DNA of 64,000 nt from Fibrobacteria bacterium (GTDB lineage: Bacteria > Fibrobacterota > Fibrobacteria > UBA11236), in assembly GCA_043745805.1 (NCBI GenBank), contig JAYTSD010000020.1, forward strand, positions 64,001 through 128,000, read 5' to 3'. Positions 56,662-63,158 of this stretch are shown here, in pieces (position 1 is the stretch's first letter; each line of letters starts with the position of its first letter). A program made the translations under genes and the position numbers. The notes below the pieces were generated by a model. The model saw nothing but the letters and a program-made list of their open reading frames with translations. It ran no database searches and had not been told where the DNA came from.

Positions 56662-56689
56662 TTTAGGTGTTCAAATTTAAACACCTAAA
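56662..56689 (-). terminator. Hairpin just downstream of the pentapeptide-repeat gene (probable terminator)
   Basis: TTTAGGTGTT-N8-AACACCTAAA, 7 nt after the stop codon. Confidence 0.55.
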
Positions 56690-56696
56690 GAAAAAA

Positions 56697-56999
56697 CTAA
56701 ATTTCTTCGGGCAATACAATACCAACTAAATGAACGCCGACATCGCCTTGTCCAATTCCTTGAACATTAAAACCATTTGGGTGCATTCCTTGTACGCTAA
56801 AGCCATTACTAGCTAAACCTTGAGGACTAAAACCATTACTAGCTAAACCTTGTGGATTAAAACCTTGAACATTCATTCCTTGCACACTCATACCATTAAG
56901 ACTAATGCCTTGTGGGCTCATCCCATTGGTAGCTATTCGTGCATTGCATAATGAAGCTCCGGCTAATAATAAAGAAAGAGAAATAGAAAACAAATTCAT
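56697..56999 (-). CDS. Small secreted protein with 12 tandem xx[NQ]G-hydrophobic pentapeptides
   Basis: CAGGAG SD; signal peptide ending SLCNA; ATNGM-SPQGI-SLNGM-SVQGM-NVQGF-NPQGL-ASNGF-SPQGL-ASNGF-SVQGM-HPNGF-NVQGI. Confidence 0.85.
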   Translation of the reverse strand: MNLFSISLSLLLAGASLCNARIATNGMSPQGISLNGMSVQGMNVQGFNPQGLASNGFSPQGLASNGFSVQGMHPNGFNVQGIGQGDVGVHLVGIVLPEEI

Positions 57000-57151
57000 A
57001 AATACTCCTGGTGATAAAGTTTTTTTTGGAAAGGATAATTTCCTTTCCGTATTAATAATGTTTATTTGCGCCTATTATCACAAGTACTTACGAAAAATAG
57101 GGATAAAAATTAAGGCCAACTCGGCTTCAATTAAAAGCGTTATACAGATTT

Positions 57152-58006
57152 TTATTTGGAGCGATTGAAAAGAATACCAAGACCTTTACCTATAGTATCG
57201 GAAGGAATTTTCATTTTGGAATAGCGTTCGGGACACTCTTTTTCGATATCGGCCAAAGTGGCCACATCTTGCAAACGGGTTTTTTTCAAATAGGCCGCAC
57301 CATCGGGTGCCCAAGCGGCTTCGAATAAAAAGCCTGCTGGTTGCGGAAAATCCTCAGTTTGTATTTTATAAATATCCCAAAATTCAATTAGGGTTCCGTT
57401 TTTGGTATGCGGGACTCCGTCTCCACAATAGTCCGCTCTTACCATATGGGAGCAAGCTGAAAATAAAGGTTGTAAAGATTGGCCACCTTTAGCATGGCCC
57501 CAAGGAGGGTAACCAAAGAGTATGCATTTTCCTCCTGCTCCACTAGTGCAGTTAATGGACAAGTTAGTAGAATCGTTAACATGATTTCCTTTGGCATCAT
57601 AATAGCCAGGCATTACAAAGGCGCGTTTTCGCCCACGCTTATCTTCTTCGCAACTATTAACCCAGTGGCCAATAGAGTCAGGAGACGAAAAAACATAAAT
57701 CCATCCGTTAAAAACTGAATCTTGATATGGAATAATACTGTCAATGCGAAATTGCCGCAAGCCGCCTAAATCGTCGTAGCCTACTATAACTGCACCAATT
57801 AATTTTTTATCCTCCACGTAACGTCCTTGTTTCCCCATCACGCGTATGCGCCCTTGTTCCAAAATAATTGGACGTATTTTGGAGGCTGGTTTTGGGTTTT
57901 GTATTGTGGTTGCAGGTGAAACTGTAGTGGTGCTGTCGGCATTACTATACGACATATTTGAAATAAGCAGGATAAGCATTAAGCTAAGGGCTTGGAAGAT
58001 TTTCAT
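57152..58006 (-). CDS. Secreted ADYC-domain protein
   Basis: Signal peptide; CTSGAGGKC..GYPPW, ACSHMVRADYCGDG, TKNGTLI, FEAAWAPDGA. Confidence 0.8.
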   Translation of the reverse strand: MKIFQALSLMLILLISNMSYSNADSTTTVSPATTIQNPKPASKIRPIILEQGRIRVMGKQGRYVEDKKLIGAVIVGYDDLGGLRQFRIDSIIPYQDSVFNGWIYVFSSPDSIGHWVNSCEEDKRGRKRAFVMPGYYDAKGNHVNDSTNLSINCTSGAGGKCILFGYPPWGHAKGGQSLQPLFSACSHMVRADYCGDGVPHTKNGTLIEFWDIYKIQTEDFPQPAGFLFEAAWAPDGAAYLKKTRLQDVATLADIEKECPERYSKMKIPSDTIGKGLGILFNRSK

Positions 58007-58025
58007 AGGAGGATAAAATAGATTT

Positions 58026-59069
58026 TTAATAAGTAAGACTACAAGACAAACCTGCTAACCAAAAAGTACTGGATGTTTTTGCCGCTAAATCAAATCCGTA
58101 TTCTCCATGAGAATCCAAATCAAGCCAAGAATTTACTGAATAGGTATAAGCAAAAGAATTAGTTAATGTGCGTTGTACCGTAACGGAGGATTTCTTTATT
58201 TTGCCTAGGACGCCGGACTTTGTGGACGGCGTTATATAGGCGTCTAAGCCGGAAGAAATAGTGAATACATGCTTCCCCAAAGTCCATTCGAGTTCGGCAC
58301 TACCGCCCATTCCATGTGTTAATTCAGTAGTAGATACCACTAAACAAGAACCATCTTTTCCAAATCGTGAACAAGTTCCTGAAAGCGAGTCCATTTTTTG
58401 TTGACTTCCATAAACTCGGCTGCTAAACACAAAATCATCCCAATCTTTTTCTATAGATAAAGATAAAGTTACCGTGTGATAAGCTCCGATAAAACCATCA
58501 TAAGCTAAAGCAGGAGTTAAACTCAAGGTGCTATCGTCATCCAAATAAAATTCTTTTCCAACTTTACCTCCTAACGTCGTACTCCATGTGGCTGCGGATT
58601 GTATGGTTTCTTGGCGGCTTAATGAGTTATAAATAAAATTCGCATAGTTCCTTCCAGTATAAACACTCAAAGAAAATCCCGACCAAATATATTTGAGCGA
58701 AGCGCTTGCATTTCCTTCGACAATTTGCCACGATTTTATTTTTGTATCCGTAGAAAAATTCATACTTTCCGAGAAGCGATGTTTCCCCAAAACTTGTCGA
58801 AAACTGACTGCCGCAGCATTTTGTAAACGCGGTCCCTTATAAGATGCCTGCCCATTGCCATTTTCAATTCCATTAGTTGTGGAGAGTGTATAAGGACGTC
58901 TAGGAGAGAATATTTCCGTTTCCGACGCGGTTTCGGAATTCGAAGCGGAAGAATCGAGGGAATCTTGAGCTTGACAAAATGTGGAATTTACTAATCCCAA
59001 CCAGAGGAAAATAAAAATCGAATAAGCAAAGGATATTTGCAAAAGACCTCTTAATGTAAAATGTTTCAA
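58026..59069 (-). CDS. Putative outer-membrane beta-barrel protein
   Basis: Signal peptide; S/T/aromatic-rich amphipathic strands; C-terminal LAGLSCSLTY. Confidence 0.6.
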   Translation of the reverse strand: MKHFTLRGLLQISFAYSIFIFLWLGLVNSTFCQAQDSLDSSASNSETASETEIFSPRRPYTLSTTNGIENGNGQASYKGPRLQNAAAVSFRQVLGKHRFSESMNFSTDTKIKSWQIVEGNASASLKYIWSGFSLSVYTGRNYANFIYNSLSRQETIQSAATWSTTLGGKVGKEFYLDDDSTLSLTPALAYDGFIGAYHTVTLSLSIEKDWDDFVFSSRVYGSQQKMDSLSGTCSRFGKDGSCLVVSTTELTHGMGGSAELEWTLGKHVFTISSGLDAYITPSTKSGVLGKIKKSSVTVQRTLTNSFAYTYSVNSWLDLDSHGEYGFDLAAKTSSTFWLAGLSCSLTY

Positions 59070-59623
59070 TGTTGTTTTTTCTCAAAACGAAGTTGTTTTT
59101 GTTCGGCTCTTTGTTCTTTGCGCTCAAGCTTTCGTTCTTGCTTTTCTTGACGCATTTCTTCTCTTCTTTCGCGACGCAATTCGCGATGTTTAGCTTGAAT
59201 TTCTGTTGCCTTTTGATGTTGGGCGGGAGTAAGGTTAGAAAGAAATTGACTCCAAGATTCTATTTTTAATTTGGTGATTTTTTTATCGGTTTCTCCAATT
59301 TTTTCCCCAATTTTTGTGGCCTCACTCTTATTCACTGGATTGACGGCAAAAACATTTTTTAAATCCAATTCGAGTTGTGCCTTTTCACTTTGTAATTGAA
59401 TTTTTTTCTTCTGATTTTGCAAAAAGGATTCACGCAAATTTTGTTTTTGATCAGGAGTAAGGGCTAATTCGTCTATCAATTTTGGATTAATATTGTCGTT
59501 TCCTTGAGCGGTACTTGCTTCATCATTGCTTGAGGTAATTTCAGCAGATGAGGAATTTTTTTTCTCTGCATACACACTTATGGCTAGCATGAGCATTAGT
59601 ACAATGAGTAATTGCTTTTTCAT
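59066..59623 (-). CDS. Spy/CpxP-like periplasmic protein
   Basis: Signal peptide; two LTxxQ motifs (LALTPDQ, NLTPAQ); charged helical tail. Confidence 0.8.
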   Translation of the reverse strand: MKKQLLIVLMLMLAISVYAEKKNSSSAEITSSNDEASTAQGNDNINPKLIDELALTPDQKQNLRESFLQNQKKKIQLQSEKAQLELDLKNVFAVNPVNKSEATKIGEKIGETDKKITKLKIESWSQFLSNLTPAQHQKATEIQAKHRELRRERREEMRQEKQERKLERKEQRAEQKQLRFEKKQH

Positions 59624-59634
59624 AAAAATTCTCC

Positions 59635-60021
59635 TTAGTTCAGTATTTCGGATTTTGTATCCGATTCATTTAAGTCATCAAAAATTTTATCCGCTAATTC
59701 TTTTTCTTCGTCGGACTGTAATTCCACATCGCCTAAATCGGCATTCCAAGCAATGAGCTCCGAATCGACAAAAGAATTAAGCGTAGCCTCTTGAGGTAAC
59801 ACCGAAGTATTTGCTACCTGCTTTAACATAAAACCAAGAGCGAGTATTCCTGCAAAAAGAGTAATGGAAGCCGCTAATCGATAAGTTGGTTTTTCCCACC
59901 ACGAATGCAAGGGCTTTACGGATGTAGAGGGACTTCCAAGCTTTGCCTCGATTTCATTCCAAAGGCCAGCACGAGGAGTGAGTCTTTCGGAGGTTTCGAA
60001 TAATTTTTTAAGCTTGGACAT
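59635..60021 (-). CDS. Putative anti-sigma factor (single TM)
   Basis: LWNEIEAKL, then TM RLAASITLFAGILALGFML; overlaps the sigma gene stop. Confidence 0.7.
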   Translation of the reverse strand: MSKLKKLFETSERLTPRAGLWNEIEAKLGSPSTSVKPLHSWWEKPTYRLAASITLFAGILALGFMLKQVANTSVLPQEATLNSFVDSELIAWNADLGDVELQSDEEKELADKIFDDLNESDTKSEILN

Positions 60022-60559
60022 ATTCCGATTCCTTTTCCAACAATTCCTTTAATCGAGTCCTTGCTCTGGAAAGTTTTGCTTTAATTGTTCCCTCAGGAAA
60101 ATTGAATGTTTTTGCTAATTCGTGCAAGGGAACACCTTCCCCATCCTTGAGCCAAAGCAGAGATCTCGTTTCCGGATCTAAAACCGCCAAAGCCTTGTTT
60201 AGTAAATCTTGAACTTCATAAGATGCATTTTGATCTTGAGGAATAATGTCCTCAACATTTTCCGTTTCTAATTTAAAACGGTTATTCGCCTGTTGTAGTC
60301 GAGTCAAACACATATTATGCGCCATTCTGTATAACCAAGTTCCGAGACCGCTTTCGGCTCGATAAGAGCTTATAACTTCAGGAAGTTTCAAAAACAGATC
60401 CTGTAAAATATCTTCGGCTTGTTCGCGAGAAAGTAGGATTCGATAACATTGATTGAGGATGCGTTTTGAAAAATTTTCGTAAATCCATTGCAAACCCTCC
60501 AAGTTCCCATCTTTTAGCAAATTAATACTTTTTTTTTCGGGACTAAACCAAAGCGTCAT
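60008..60559 (-). CDS. ECF RNA polymerase sigma factor
   Basis: AEDILQDLF, LGTWLYRMAHN, PEGTIKAKLSRAR. Confidence 0.92.
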   Translation of the reverse strand: MTLWFSPEKKSINLLKDGNLEGLQWIYENFSKRILNQCYRILLSREQAEDILQDLFLKLPEVISSYRAESGLGTWLYRMAHNMCLTRLQQANNRFKLETENVEDIIPQDQNASYEVQDLLNKALAVLDPETRSLLWLKDGEGVPLHELAKTFNFPEGTIKAKLSRARTRLKELLEKESEYVQA

Positions 60560-60575
60560 TTTTTTTGCATCCTAA

Positions 60576-60602
60576 ATAATCCTAGAGTGTATCTAGGATT
60601 AT
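60576..60602. other. Intergenic hairpin between the heptad-repeat gene and the sigma gene
   Basis: ATAATCCTAGA-GTGTA-TCTAGGATTAT, perfect 11-bp stem. Confidence 0.55.
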
Positions 60603-60627
60603 CCATTTTTAAAAGGATAAGTTCCTC

Positions 60628-61008
60628 TTATTCCGCTTTCTTTTCTTTCATATCTTGATGCATTTCTTTTTTGTCGTGACGATGTTCTCTACGATCTTTA
60701 CGTAAATCTTTGCGATCCTCATGACGATCTTTTTTGTCTTTCTTTATCTCGGCTTTATCGGCTGCAACAGCTTCGGTATTGCCTGCGGCTTTGTCAGCTT
60801 TCAATTGTTTACGATCGGCTTTTAATTCCGCATTGTCGGCTTTAACTTCTTGACGATCGGCTTTACGTGCAGCATTGTCAGCTTTTAATTCAGCTTTATC
60901 AGCTTGAATTTCGGCCTTTTGAGGATTTGGAGGGGTTACATCTTCCGCTTGGCAAAGGGCCATGGTAAAGGTCACTGCGGCAATCGAAGTAAGTATCTTA
61001 AAGTTCAT
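60628..61008 (-). CDS. Small secreted highly charged heptad-repeat (coiled-coil) protein
   Basis: Signal peptide ending LCQA; KAELKAD/NAARKAD/RQEVKAD/RKDLRKD 7-mers; AAGGA SD. Confidence 0.85.
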   Translation of the reverse strand: MNFKILTSIAAVTFTMALCQAEDVTPPNPQKAEIQADKAELKADNAARKADRQEVKADNAELKADRKQLKADKAAGNTEAVAADKAEIKKDKKDRHEDRKDLRKDRREHRHDKKEMHQDMKEKKAE

Positions 61009-61050
61009 GCTATTTTCCTTTTTTGATTGGGTTAATTCCCAATATAAAGG

Positions 61051-61080
61051 TTTGACAGTTGAGAGTGGGGCTCGGTTGCA
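61051..61080 (-). promoter_or_regulatory. ECF-sigma-type promoter
   Basis: Minus strand TGCAACC-N17-GTCAAA; AAC-to-GTC distance 18 nt as in GGAACTT-N16-GTCAAA; about 40 nt upstream of ATG 61008. Confidence 0.6.
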
Positions 61081-61385: not shown

Positions 61386-63158
61386 TTGTTGTCCATGAAA
61401 TCTCTATTGCGAATTTTTATTCTGTATTGTTTTTTTTCGGTTTATGCTTTTGCCAAGGATAGAGTTTTTGAGCCCTCCGAAGGTTTTACTTTAGCGGAGA
61501 AATTGCCTGATAGCGTTAAAATTCATGTGCGTTCTATTCAACTGAATATAAAAGATGCCTTTGAAGGTGCCAAAGTAAATTCGGAAGTGGAAGCGTATGT
61601 TTTTGATATCGGCAATAAATTACATATCGAATCTAAACCTTATACTATTCGCCGACGCCTATTGTTCAAAGAAGGCGATACCATTAATAAAGACAAATTG
61701 TTGGAAACCGAAAGGGCTTTGCGTAATGAAGAATTTTTAGCAGATGCCAAAATAGAAGTAAAAATTTGGGAAGATAGTACGGCACATATTATTGTTACGA
61801 CTTTTGATCAATGGACTACTACTTTAGCCGCTAGTTTAAATCGCGATGGCGGCGAATGGCAATATTGGTTTGGGCCAGTGGAAAGTAATGTTTTGGGTTC
61901 GGGACAAAAACTCGGTTTTTTTATGGGGCATACGGATAAGCATGATTTAAAATGGTTGGATTATAAAAACAATGCTTTTTTGCCTTGGAAATTGCAATTG
62001 GGCGCAAATGGGGTATTGTATAGTGATGGTTATGGTTATGCTTTTTCTTTAGCGCATCCGCTTTTGTCACGCAGTGATAAATACGCTTTTTCCATTTCTA
62101 TGGAAGGCAGTGAATTATCGGAAACGGTTTATTTTGATGCCAATGATTATGAGGAAATGGCTAAAGATCATTCACTTTCGGATAGCGCCATTCAGGCTTA
62201 TGCTAAAAAAAACCACACTTTACTTTATTATAATCGTATAGCAACGCATAACACAAATGTTACGGTTACGCGCTCATATGGTGATAAACTCAAACTTAAT
62301 CCCAGCTTAACTTATGATAGAAGCGATCGCTATCAGCATGGCAGTCTCTTACCGCGTACAGATGCTTTGGCGCTGGCGAATCAATTCAATGCCAGCGATT
62401 ATAAACTAGATGAACGTACCACGGATTTGGCCGGCTTAAGTTTAAGCCTCTATCAATATGAATATAAAACCGTGCGCAATTTCCGCAATTTAAAATGGAG
62501 TGAAAATTTAGATGTAGGTTGGCGGTTAAGTTCAAAGCTGGCAAAGAACTTAAATCTCGAAAAAAATATCGCCGGCAATCAGTATGACTGGTATTTAAGT
62601 CATACCGCGGTGTTTAACAATGCGTGGATGGATGCGCATTTTGTGAATAGTAATGTCACTACTAATTATTTTATTACGGAAAACGGACGCTTAAACAATG
62701 GTTATGCCCATGCGGGATTGGAGTATTATTGGCGGCAAGTCGAAACTACAGGATCTTTCCTTTCTGTGCAATGGAGTAATTTGTTTGCGGTAACCAAAAC
62801 CCAACAATTATTACTGGGCGAAGAAACGGATTTACACGGCTATCCCAATTATTATTATGCCGGTCAAGCACGTTTTATTATGAGCGCGGAACAAAGGCTT
62901 TTTACGCCCTGGGAAATGGGCACTTTTATTCCGGCTTTTGCGGCCTTTGTTAATGCTGGTAATACCTACAAAAGTTATAACGTTTTCGATCCGCAAGATT
63001 TGCATTATTCCGTAGGTTTAGGCATGCGTTTAGGAGCCAGTAAATCCGTACAAAAAGTGGTGAATCATTTGAACTTCGCTTGGCCTTTAGATAGACGCTT
63101 ATTAAAAGGTCCGTACTATTGGCCTACCTTTTCCTTGCAAGCCAAGAAAAGTTTGTAA
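61386..63158 (+). CDS. Omp85/BamA-TamA-like outer membrane protein (POTRA plus barrel)
   Basis: IRRRLLFKEGD, LLETERALR, LHGYP, FVNAG, SVGLGMR; true start may be ATG 61395. Confidence 0.8.
   Translation: MLSMKSLLRIFILYCFFSVYAFAKDRVFEPSEGFTLAEKLPDSVKIHVRSIQLNIKDAFEGAKVNSEVEAYVFDIGNKLHIESKPYTIRRRLLFKEGDTINKDKLLETERALRNEEFLADAKIEVKIWEDSTAHIIVTTFDQWTTTLAASLNRDGGEWQYWFGPVESNVLGSGQKLGFFMGHTDKHDLKWLDYKNNAFLPWKLQLGANGVLYSDGYGYAFSLAHPLLSRSDKYAFSISMEGSELSETVYFDANDYEEMAKDHSLSDSAIQAYAKKNHTLLYYNRIATHNTNVTVTRSYGDKLKLNPSLTYDRSDRYQHGSLLPRTDALALANQFNASDYKLDERTTDLAGLSLSLYQYEYKTVRNFRNLKWSENLDVGWRLSSKLAKNLNLEKNIAGNQYDWYLSHTAVFNNAWMDAHFVNSNVTTNYFITENGRLNNGYAHAGLEYYWRQVETTGSFLSVQWSNLFAVTKTQQLLLGEETDLHGYPNYYYAGQARFIMSAEQRLFTPWEMGTFIPAFAAFVNAGNTYKSYNVFDPQDLHYSVGLGMRLGASKSVQKVVNHLNFAWPLDRRLLKGPYYWPTFSLQAKKSL

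What the first reader, a model, noticed from the sequence alone, without database searches (positions are those of the whole stretch)
56662..61080. Candidate undescribed ECF-controlled export/assembly system for a Q/N-G repeat fibre or amyloid-like protein
Seen: seven co-oriented genes from an ECF-type promoter (61051-61080) to a terminal hairpin (56662-56689). In order they encode a secreted heptad-repeat protein, ECF sigma, TM anti-sigma, Spy/CpxP-like protein, OM barrel, secreted Cys-rich ADYC protein and a 100-aa secreted pentapeptide-repeat protein. The middle five overlap or are under 20 bp apart, and an Omp85-like gene lies divergently. Known: curli and Fap systems combine a small Q/N/G-rich repeat subunit, an accessory/nucleator, a periplasmic chaperone and an OM channel; Spy is an anti-aggregation chaperone. 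Inferred: an analogous but non-homologous system with the repeat protein as subunit, ADYC as nucleator or processing factor, and the barrel as exit. I know of no described function for ADYC proteins.
Basis: partly seen in the sequence, partly recalled or inferred. Interest (0 to 1): 0.8.

Follow-up and report, generated by a model that had tools for sequence, protein, structure and literature searches.

The report
Repeat protein docks on ADYC partner
The seven genes are real, but they look like three separate conserved gene modules that happen to lie side by side, and the interesting one is a widespread, unstudied pair: a small exported Asn/Gln-Gly repeat protein and the cysteine-rich ADYC protein it probably binds.

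Summary
All seven minus-strand genes, their spacing and both hairpins are in the sequence. One seven-gene export machine is not supported. In related genomes the block splits into modules at separate places:
- sigma/anti-sigma/Spy-like, with the heptad gene upstream in one of six places;
- heptad protein plus barrel;
- ADYC plus repeat protein.

None of the window's ECF, Spy-like, barrel, heptad or Omp85 proteins matched anything in 160 other ADYC loci.

The ADYC–repeat link is strongly supported. In 59 of 81 ADYC genes from genomes, and 43 of 65 testable metagenome loci, an [N/Q]-period-5 repeat ORF is fused or adjacent on the same strand. No such ORF occurs in 441 kb of flanking DNA. About a quarter of the ADYC proteins I held carry the repeats as their own N-terminus.

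A complex model puts the partner's last 12 residues against the ADYC N-terminal β-domain: score 0.80, best control 0.00. The repeats themselves are modelled poorly.

ADYC has no clear structural match and I found no paper on it. Elsewhere the pair often sits between an ECF sigma and a transmembrane Ser/Thr kinase.

This scan met the same pair twice before on other DNA. Its function is unknown; I found no evidence for an amyloid.

The parts
61051..61080 (-). Candidate ECF-type promoter ahead of the heptad gene (TGCAACC-N17-TGTCAAA)
   Evidence: Both hexamers are conserved and the spacer has diverged in the closest relative. The motif is not enriched genome-wide. No transcript data were available.
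60628..61008 (-). Exported, highly charged KAD heptad-repeat protein (126 aa); first gene of the ECF module
   Evidence: ORF; 42-bp tandem repeat. A homologue lies upstream of sigma in relative G023 and directly upstream of barrel homologues in 4 of 6 relatives.
60576..60602 (-). Core (11-bp arms) of a 14-bp-stem hairpin between the heptad gene and sigma (possible attenuator or processing site)
   Evidence: -19 kcal/mol, z -4.9.
60008..60559 (-). ECF sigma factor
   Evidence: TIGR02937 93.8 bits (cut-off 42.9); PF04542 and PF08281 also match.
59635..60021 (-). Single-pass anti-sigma-like membrane protein
   Evidence: Overlaps sigma by 14 bp; transmembrane helix at residues 49-67. Always next to sigma and Spy-like in relatives. 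No family hit.
59066..59623 (-). Exported Spy/CpxP-like (LTXXQ) protein with a charged tail
   Evidence: Sub-threshold LTXXQ and Spy matches; two LTPxQ motifs in the translation; conserved beside the anti-sigma gene.
58026..59069 (-). Probable outer-membrane β-barrel (347 aa)
   Evidence: Signal-like N-terminus and C-terminal Tyr; porin-like language-model neighbours. Homologues in 7 of 41 genomes, never beside ADYC.
57152..58006 (-). Exported ADYC-domain protein: small N-terminal β-domain plus cysteine-rich C-terminal domain
   Evidence: PF20032 E 1e-41. AlphaFold2 model pLDDT 88. Six invariant Cys.
56697..56999 (-). Exported [N/Q]-G pentapeptide-repeat partner (100 aa) with C-terminal docking strand VGVHLVGIVLPE (residues 87-98)
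   Evidence: Complex model 0.80 against 0.00. Orthologues sit beside ADYC in two relatives.
56662..56689 (-). Hairpin after the last gene
   Evidence: -13.3 kcal/mol, z -4.1, weak U tract. The terminator scan did not list it.

Best explanation
The block is a juxtaposition of three conserved modules, not one machine.

(1) Heptad protein, ECF sigma, anti-sigma and Spy-like protein form an ordinary-looking envelope-stress operon.

(2) A porin-like barrel has been placed behind that operon.

(3) The ADYC protein and the small repeat protein are the split, two-chain form of a very widespread exported protein. Its single-chain relatives have, in order, a signal peptide or lipoprotein signal, [N/Q]-G repeats, a small β-domain and the cysteine-rich ADYC domain.

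Both proteins go through Sec to the periplasm. There the partner's C-terminal strand (residues 87-98) adds to the edge of the ADYC N-terminal β-domain, against the conserved LIGAVIVG strand. That leaves the Asn/Gln-Gly repeats as an extended arm on a disulfide-bonded head.

In this genome ADYC starts 19 bp after the barrel gene, so it is probably transcribed from the ECF-type promoter, that is, when the envelope is stressed.

What is shown by my calls: the genes, the modularity, the adjacency and fusion statistics, and the predicted interface. What is inferred: secretion, disulfides, actual binding, co-transcription, and any role in the envelope.
For: Modularity:
- ADYC was found in 3 of 41 related genomes including this one. 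Both relatives have a repeat-protein gene 80-116 bp downstream of ADYC with the same C-terminal motif, and none of the other five genes nearby.
- Sigma/anti-sigma/Spy-like genes are adjacent in 6 of 6 places examined. The heptad gene is upstream in 1 of them, and in the closest relative the operon ends after Spy-like at a convergent gene.
- Barrel homologues lie elsewhere, 4 of 6 directly behind a heptad-type gene.
- No Omp85 homologue was found upstream of the ECF module in 4 of 4 relatives.

The ADYC-repeat pair:
- 59 of 81 ADYC genes in 80 genome loci have a fused or same-strand adjacent ORF with 4 or more [N/Q]xxxx units. None occurs in 441,489 bp lying more than 2.5 kb away.
- By eye, 18 of the 22 misses have a variant repeat ORF.
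- Replicate in metagenome contigs: 43 of 65 testable loci.
- 54 of the 203 ADYC proteins I held have 3 or more such units fused at the N-terminus.
- P0012 carries the partner's GIVLP motif fused just ahead of the ADYC β-domain.

Docking: complex score 0.80, 0.79 and 0.81 in three runs, against 0.00 for the best of 3 controls. That mark was reached by 116 of 157 solved complexes and 2 of 215 mismatched pairs. The runs agree in at least 21% of their contacts, and the partner's pLDDT is 34-36. The interface is partner residues 87-98 with ADYC residues 42-47 and 68-79. G71 in that strand is nearly invariant.

Family size: 4,061 clusters at 50% identity with E <= 0.001.

Promoter hexamers are conserved in the closest relative.
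Against: - The partner's repeats are modelled with low confidence both in the complex (pLDDT 34-36) and in a natural fused protein (residues 32-85 under 50). The shape of the 'arm' is therefore unknown.
- The complex score is the model's own confidence, and I used my own alignments.
- No transcript data exist for this organism in the runs on offer. A strong hairpin follows gene 1, and 152 bp separate ADYC from the partner gene, so more than one transcript is possible.
- The barrel-ADYC adjacency occurs only here among the genomes searched. That can mean chance, but it can also mean a lineage-specific functional link that comparison cannot see.
- ECF sigma factors of another type do flank the pair in 12 of 80 and 10 of 80 loci. 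A link between the pair and envelope signalling may therefore be deeper than shared transcription.
Confidence: 0.55

Rival explanations
1. Envelope sentinel. ADYC plus its repeat arm is an accessory sensor. It would be built like the lipoproteins RcsF or NlpE (anchor or partner, then a flexible tether, then a disulfide-rich head) and would report envelope state to the neighbouring signalling system: the anti-sigma factor here, transmembrane Ser/Thr kinases or histidine kinases elsewhere.
For: - The pair lies between an ECF sigma (PF07638) and a kinase in 12 of 80 genome loci and 10 of 80 metagenome loci.
- Those kinases have one transmembrane helix near residue 400-430, with TPR repeats on the far side. 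That would put the TPR region in the same compartment as ADYC.
- In the Mesorhizobium locus scanned, a hybrid histidine kinase and an OmpR-type regulator lie just upstream; the kinase's sequence cluster covers 23 loci, and other loci have a hybrid kinase downstream.
- Many fused forms have a lipoprotein-like Cys before the repeats (judged by eye).
Against: - Most of the 160 loci show no signalling gene detected with my profiles. I did not measure the base rate of kinases near any gene.
- Being flanked by regulators fits a regulated target equally well.
- No binding to a kinase or anti-sigma factor was tested. The RcsF/NlpE comparison comes from memory, not from any call.
Confidence: 0.15
2. 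Enzyme and substrate. ADYC is a periplasmic enzyme that cleaves, deamidates or cross-links the Asn-Gly units of the partner. The C-terminal strand would serve as the recognition handle. Fused forms would process themselves, as in peptide natural-product systems where precursor and enzyme may be fused or split.
For: - Invariant polar residues lie beside the Cys (K160, D192, Y193, D211, E229, R244; H200 in 90% or more of sequences).
- Docking uses only the partner's tail, which would leave the repeats free.
- Both fused and split forms exist.
- Repeat number and sequence change quickly while N/Q-G is kept.
Against: - The six invariant Cys fit structural disulfides.
- No export or immunity genes are conserved beside the pair.
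Confidence: 0.12
3. This is a dedicated ECF-controlled export and assembly system in which the repeat protein is a fibre or amyloid subunit, ADYC is a nucleator, Spy-like is a chaperone and the barrel is the exit channel.
For: - Tight packing of five genes.
- All products carry export signals or are envelope proteins.
- The repeats are Q/N/G-rich.
- ADYC does appear to bind the repeat protein.
Against: - The modules are not co-conserved: 0 of 160 ADYC loci, and 0 of 2 relatives' ADYC neighbourhoods, hold the barrel, Spy-like, sigma, anti-sigma, heptad or Omp85 genes. The ECF module occurs without them.
- No curli or Fap family matches.
- In many relatives the repeats are covalently joined to ADYC behind a lipoprotein-like signal. 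That does not suit a secreted polymerising subunit.
Confidence: 0.05
4. Neighbours only. The ADYC pair has its own promoter and is regulated independently, so its place behind the ECF operon has no meaning.
For: - In the two relatives the pair stands without any sigma gene.
- This arrangement is unique among the genomes searched.
Against: - Only 19 bp separate the barrel and ADYC genes, and the scan found no terminator-like site in that gap.
- The pair is next to other ECF sigma genes in 22 of 160 loci.
Confidence: 0.13

Closest known systems
Pentapeptide-repeat proteins (Pfam PF00805, PF13599, PF13576). Qnr, MfpA and the cyanobacterial Rfr proteins are examples recalled from memory.
   Same: Five-residue period with a hydrophobic centre and Gly at a fixed position. 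Of 17 partner homologues, 5 match PF13599, 4 match PF00805 and 2 match PF13576. The ADYC profile's repeat columns weakly hit chains named beta1, 6beta1 and 3beta1 (E 0.06-1.6); I recall these as designed pentapeptide β-solenoids.
   Different: The window's copy matches none of these models at E <= 0.1. Asn/Gln-Gly is the fixed pair. One relative uses a six-residue unit. The protein is exported, has a C-terminal docking strand and is tied to ADYC. No confident β-helix was modelled.
Curli (Csg) and Fap functional-amyloid systems
   Same: A small exported Q/N/G-rich repeat protein lies near a periplasmic chaperone-like gene and a barrel gene.
   Different: No Csg or Fap family matched any of the seven proteins. 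The genes are not co-conserved. The repeat unit is 5 residues, against about 20 in curlin (recalled).
ECF sigma/anti-sigma envelope-stress operons with a Spy/CpxP-type periplasmic protein
   Same: Sigma, an overlapping single-pass anti-sigma gene and an LTXXQ-type exported protein, conserved as a unit in 6 of 6 places in relatives. The promoter hexamers have the AAC...GTC form.
   Different: The Spy-like protein scores below family cut-offs. Extra genes (barrel, ADYC, partner) follow it only in this genome.
ECF sigma factors switched on by a transmembrane Ser/Thr kinase. EcfP/PknT of Vibrio and EcfK/PknS of Xanthomonas are recalled, not checked.
   Same: In 22 of 160 other ADYC loci the pair lies next to a PF07638-type sigma. 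A kinase-TPR protein lies within the locus in 13 + 8 of them, directly downstream of ADYC in those I scanned with Pfam.
   Different: The window has a classical sigma/anti-sigma pair and no kinase. Whether those kinases act on those sigmas was not tested.
RcsF and NlpE sentinel lipoproteins (recalled)
   Same: The topology of the fused ADYC forms: lipoprotein-like signal, low-complexity tether, disulfide-rich globular head. Neighbourhoods are rich in signalling genes.
   Different: No sequence or fold similarity was found or tested. This is an analogy only.

Membership tests
ADYC domain (PF20032) | Match to the family model above its gathering score | tested here: met
   E 1e-41, 143.5 bits against a cut-off of 27, model positions 2-175 of 176. 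The ADYC motif and six invariant Cys are present.
ADYC-partner repeat proteins (undescribed; defined here) | Signal peptide, [N/Q]-G short-period repeats and a C-terminal h-x-h-h-x-V-x-L-P strand, encoded beside ADYC on the same strand | tested here: met
   All features are present in the 100-aa ORF. Adjacent ORFs are present in 59 of 81 and 43 of 65 other loci.
Pentapeptide-repeat family (PF00805 clan) | Match to a Pfam pentapeptide model | tested here: not met
   No pentapeptide model matched the window's protein at E <= 0.1. 5 of 17 homologues match PF13599.
Pentapeptide-repeat family (PF00805 clan) | Right-handed four-sided β-helix fold | tested here: inconclusive
   The repeats were modelled at pLDDT 34-36 in the complex and under 50 in the fused relative.
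Curli system | Curlin-repeat subunit and a CsgG-type channel with CsgE/F (features recalled) | tested here: not met
   Pfam and NCBIfam scans of all seven proteins at E <= 0.1 list no Csg family.
Fap amyloid system | FapC-type repeats and a FapF channel (features recalled) | tested here: not met
   No Fap family is listed for any of the seven proteins. I did not check whether both libraries hold Fap models.
Functional amyloid or fibre in general | Self-assembly into cross-β fibres | not testable with these tools
   Needs thioflavin-T or Congo-red assays and electron microscopy.
ECF (group 4) sigma-70 factors | Regions 2 and 4 only, with a match to the ECF model | tested here: met
   TIGR02937 93.8 bits against 42.9. 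PF04542 E 1.6e-11 and PF08281 E 6e-9. Length 183 aa.
Spy/CpxP (LTXXQ, PF07813) | Match above the gathering score; LTXXQ motifs | tested here: inconclusive
   17 bits against 24.3. Spy NF007769 17.6 bits against 174. Two LTPxQ motifs are seen in the translation.
Omp85/BamA family (divergent gene 61386-63158) | POTRA domain plus a C-terminal Omp85 barrel | tested here: inconclusive
   POTRA 21.8 bits against 21.3. BamA TIGR03303 47.3 bits against 297. Omp85_fam 18.7 bits against 200.
Outer-membrane β-barrel porins (gene 58026-59069) | β-barrel fold or a porin family match | tested here: inconclusive
   No Pfam or NCBIfam hit. Language-model neighbours are porin clusters at 0.95-0.96, but recognition is 1976, under 2300. 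I did not fold this protein.

The most novel reading that the evidence does not exclude
ADYC proteins with their Asn/Gln-Gly repeat arm are a new, very widespread class of envelope sentinels. A disulfide-rich periplasmic head sits on a repeat tether that is either fused behind a lipid anchor or docked as a separate chain by strand addition. The head's state is read by whichever signalling system lies next to it: the anti-sigma factor here, transmembrane Ser/Thr kinases with periplasmic TPR domains in Lysobacterales and a Thermoanaerobaculia genome, and hybrid histidine kinases in Mesorhizobium and others. In this window the adjacent porin-like barrel could be the outer-membrane host of the tether.
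Probability: 0.15. Interest if true: 0.8.

Novelty: new variant of a known kind. Interest (0 to 1): 0.5.

Why it matters
ADYC is a large protein family: 4,061 clusters at 50% identity, found in Pseudomonadota, cyanobacteria, Myxococcota, Acidobacteriota, Verrucomicrobiota, Bdellovibrionota and Fibrobacterota. It has no known function, no clear structural match and no paper that I could find.

ADYC almost always comes with an exported Asn/Gln-Gly repeat arm, either fused or as a separate chain that is predicted to dock by one strand. This gives the family a first testable piece of anatomy. It also gives a concrete experiment: delete the partner's last 14 residues.

The pair's recurrent position between an ECF sigma and a transmembrane kinase suggests a link to envelope signalling that could be tested in tractable, harmless bacteria.

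For this window the result also corrects an attractive but unsupported reading, the amyloid export machine.

Tried and rejected
- RNA evidence for co-transcription: no RNA holder was listed.
- Metagenome scan with the single ADYC protein: 144 pattern matches, none a relative. The repeat with alignment A4 gave 80 loci, none more than 40% identical, so I gained no closer relatives.
- Atlas search of ADYC residues 110-284 among named clusters: no usable hit.
- phmmer with the window's sigma alone found no sigma genes in the 80 genome loci. A profile built from this genome's nine sigma-like ORFs then found 11, and 12 after rebuilding. The first blank was a sensitivity failure, not an absence.
- A longest-ORF-first list of 414 neighbour ORFs meant for Pfam was dropped. 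In GC-rich loci, wrong-strand ORFs displaced real genes. I used all-against-all clustering and a hand-picked list of 32 ORFs instead.
- Genome-wide count of the promoter motif: uninformative.
- The first promoter alignment used an over-long ORF start in the relative. I redid it.
- Literature search was swamped by 'bradycardia' through my term 'radyc'. I redid it cleanly.
- Fold one search failed on a length limit and was resent 2 bases shorter.
- Considered and rejected: that the repeat ORF is a chance ORF. It is conserved with the same C-terminal motif in two relatives.
- Considered and rejected: that the ADYC pair is a halved pseudogene. Both genes have their own signal peptides and intact frames, and the split form is the commoner one.

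Full report
OBSERVATION

- Sigma (60008-60559) overlaps the next gene (59635-60021) by 14 bp.
- That gene is 11 bp from the Spy-like gene (59066-59623).
- The Spy-like gene overlaps the 347-aa gene (58026-59069) by 4 bp.
- The 347-aa gene is 19 bp from ADYC (57152-58006).
- The first gene (60628-61008) is 68 bp from sigma.
- The last gene (56697-56999) is 152 bp from ADYC.

Family scans:
- ADYC is confirmed: PF20032, E 1e-41.
- The ECF sigma is confirmed: TIGR02937, 93.8 bits against a cut-off of 42.9.
- The Spy-like protein reaches only sub-threshold scores (LTXXQ 17 bits against 24.3; Spy E 0.0036), but two LTPxQ motifs are visible.
- The 347-aa protein has no family. A language-model search puts it among porin clusters at 0.95-0.96 with low recognition.
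- The anti-sigma candidate has one hydrophobic helix at residues 49-67.
- The divergent 590-aa gene has a POTRA domain just over threshold and a partial BamA match.

The last protein has 12 consecutive [N/Q]-G units at exactly period 5 (residues 25-81). Part of this comes from a 30-bp DNA repeat.

The terminal hairpin folds at -13.3 kcal/mol (z -4.1). A stronger hairpin (-19 kcal/mol, z -4.9) lies between the first gene and sigma.

The proposed promoter reads TGCAACC-N17-TGTC. The closest relative has TGCAACC-N17-CGTC with a diverged spacer, which is what a real ECF-type promoter would look like. The motif is not enriched genome-wide, and no RNA runs were listed.

IS IT ONE SYSTEM?

I searched 40 related genomes plus this one.

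ADYC was found in 3 of 41. In both relatives a small exported repeat protein is encoded 80-116 bp downstream. These proteins are 102 aa with NGVKL-type units and 195 aa with six-residue NGLNxx units. Their C-terminal motifs (IKLVGIILPEDEK, IHLVGIVLANGK) match the window's VHLVGIVLPEEI. Neither 17-20 kb neighbourhood holds a match to the window's sigma, anti-sigma, Spy-like, barrel, heptad or Omp85 proteins, nor to a sigma profile.

The anti-sigma gene was found in 11 of 41 genomes and the Spy-like gene in 15 of 41. Both tallies include one unpublished genome, G021, on which nothing else here rests.

In all 6 distinct places I examined, sigma, anti-sigma and Spy-like are adjacent. In the closest relative (sigma 80% identical) the heptad gene precedes them and a convergent gene follows Spy-like. 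None has a barrel, ADYC or repeat gene beside it.

Barrel homologues occur in 7 of 41 genomes. They lie at other places, and 4 of 6 sit directly behind a heptad-type charged protein gene. No Omp85 homologue lies upstream of the ECF module in 4 of 4 relatives.

The block is three modules side by side.

THE ADYC-REPEAT PAIR

ADYC is a large family. The profile search gave 4,061 representative clusters at E <= 0.001 and 1,256 at E <= 1e-30. At least 591 loci were found in one-genome-per-species contigs, from Mesorhizobium, Tahibacter and other Lysobacterales, Nostoc and other cyanobacteria, Myxococcota, Acidobacteriota, Verrucomicrobiota and Bdellovibrionota.

In the best 80 of those loci there are 81 ADYC genes. 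Of these:
- 57 have an ORF with 4 or more [N/Q]xxxx units immediately upstream on the same strand;
- 1 has it downstream;
- 1 has the repeats fused only;
- 22 were missed by the rule.

No such ORF occurs in 441,489 bp lying more than 2.5 kb from ADYC in the same loci. By eye, 18 of the 22 misses have a small exported ORF with variant units (QGPVL, a doubled RGGWDGNGPD, a ten- or six-residue period) and the same kind of C-terminus.

An independent set of 80 metagenome loci gave 43 of 65 testable loci with a partner (38 upstream, 5 downstream). The other 15 had too little upstream DNA to test.

Of the 203 ADYC proteins I held, 54 carry 3 or more such units as their own N-terminus; a few of those calls look spurious. 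Many of the 54 have a lipoprotein-like Cys ahead of the repeats. One relative, P0012, has the partner's GIVLP motif fused about ten residues ahead of the ADYC β-domain, with no repeats.

Across 17 partners the only conserved parts are the signal peptide, the N/Q-G register and a C-terminal h-x-h-h-x-V-x-L-P strand. Five of the 17 match Pfam Pentapeptide_4 and four match Pentapeptide. The window's copy matches neither.

STRUCTURE

The AlphaFold2 model of the window's ADYC protein is confident (mean pLDDT 88, pTM 0.81). It shows a small β-domain (about residues 46-135) followed by a mixed cysteine-rich domain.

A natural fused relative, P0050, models confidently from the last repeat unit onward. 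Residues 32-85, which hold the other repeats, stay below pLDDT 50.

The complex model of mature ADYC with the mature partner scored 0.80, 0.79 and 0.81, against 0.00 for each of three controls. That mark was reached by 116 of 157 solved complexes and 2 of 215 mismatched pairs, and those counts hold only roughly because I used my own alignments. The runs agree in at least 21% of contacts, and the partner's pLDDT is 34-36. The confident contacts are partner residues 87-98 (VGVHLVGIVLPE) with ADYC residues 42-47 and 68-79 (KLIGAVIVGYDD). The latter strand holds the nearly invariant G71. The model supports binding; it does not show it.

Comparing the two models, the window's IILEQG strand corresponds to the last repeat unit of the fused protein. 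The partner's strand would then take the place of the repeat unit before it. This mapping is my inference.

CONTEXT ELSEWHERE

Clustering all neighbour ORFs of the 80 genome loci showed only ADYC and the partner as near-universal.

A sigma profile found an ECF sigma immediately beside the partner gene in 12 of 80 genome loci (Lysobacterales plus one Thermoanaerobaculia) and in 10 of 80 metagenome loci. All seven that I scanned are PF07638-type.

A large protein with a kinase domain, one transmembrane helix near residue 400-430 and TPR repeats follows ADYC directly in those I scanned. By phmmer a kinase-like ORF lies within the locus in 13 of 80 and 8 of 80 loci.

In Mesorhizobium a hybrid histidine kinase and an OmpR-type regulator lie upstream. 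Other loci have hybrid kinases downstream.

None of these loci has the window's kind of sigma/anti-sigma/Spy-like module. I did not measure how often signalling genes lie near random genes, so only the recurring sigma-partner-ADYC-kinase order carries weight.

READING

The best-supported account has three parts.
- The partner is the detachable repeat arm of an ADYC protein and docks by adding its C-terminal strand to the ADYC β-domain.
- In this genome the pair and a porin-like barrel sit behind an envelope-stress ECF operon and are probably read through from it.
- The seven genes are not one export machine.

What the pair does is unknown. I rank the possibilities in this order:
1. an envelope-located binding or effector module made under stress;
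2. an accessory sensor for the neighbouring signalling system;
3. an enzyme acting on its own Asn-Gly arm;
4. last, a fibre system.

PRIOR KNOWLEDGE

Full-text searches for 'ADYC domain' (0 papers), 'PF20032' or 'ADYC' (12 papers, judged unrelated from their titles and abstract openings), and 'ADYCG', 'ADYC motif', 'ADYC-domain' or 'ADYC family' (0 papers) found nothing on this family. 'Pentapeptide repeat' with 'Asn-Gly' and 'secreted' also gave 0 papers. I opened no paper.

This scan's own notes record the same pair twice before on other DNA: a Trp-bearing partner beside a kinase-linked ECF sigma, and a six-residue-period partner. I had already measured the adjacency before reading them.

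Noticed in passing
window 60628-61008; L015 5446-5928, L016 6769-7368, L018 6237-6779, L019 2277-2774: An exported, extremely charged KAD/KED heptad-repeat protein is encoded directly upstream of the porin-like barrel in 4 of 6 relatives, and upstream of sigma here and in the closest relative. It looks like a conserved partner of that barrel. Its His/Arg/Lys-rich tail resembles the tail of the Spy-like protein.
   Followed up: partly
window 60576-60602: A perfect palindrome with 11-bp arms (14 paired bases in RNA, -19 kcal/mol) lies between the heptad gene and sigma. It could lower read-through into sigma, or it could be a protein-binding site.
   Followed up: partly
L022, L024, L027, L028, L031, L033, L046, L049, L063, L074, L085, L099 (about 4.6-9.6 kb in each): A recurring gene order in Lysobacterales and one Thermoanaerobaculia genome: ECF sigma (PF07638), repeat partner, ADYC, then a transmembrane Ser/Thr kinase with TPR repeats beyond the membrane helix. 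The sigma is on either strand.
   Followed up: partly
L064 4557-4874, 5005-5286, 5403-5786; L099 5183-5509, 5598-5882: Some loci carry two or three different partner genes in a row ahead of a single ADYC gene. All end in the same V-R-V-R-L-P type motif, so several arms may compete for one head.
   Followed up: no
L021, L036, L038, L041, L088, L090 (ORF just upstream of ADYC): A variant partner class has no long repeat array. It has two copies of RGGWDxNGP and a C-terminus ending in LEGLSVDSIELP or similar.
   Followed up: no
L004 7501-8088 compared with window 56697-56999 and L005 10740-11048: Among three related genomes the partner differs in unit length (6 against 5 residues), unit sequence and copy number (about 10 to about 25). 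The last dozen residues stay alike. The arm evolves fast while the docking strand does not.
   Followed up: partly
L015 4485-5309, L016 7394-8281, L018 6835-7701: Another conserved exported protein of about 275-295 aa, ending FTLDEGLYNAL or similar, lies just upstream of the heptad-barrel pair in three relatives. I did not identify it.
   Followed up: no
window 57002-57151: The 152-bp spacer between ADYC and the partner gene holds a short GGAAAGGA/TCCTTTCC hairpin followed by eight A. As a whole it does not fold better than shuffled sequence (z -1.1). Relatives also keep 80-116 bp at this position.
   Followed up: partly
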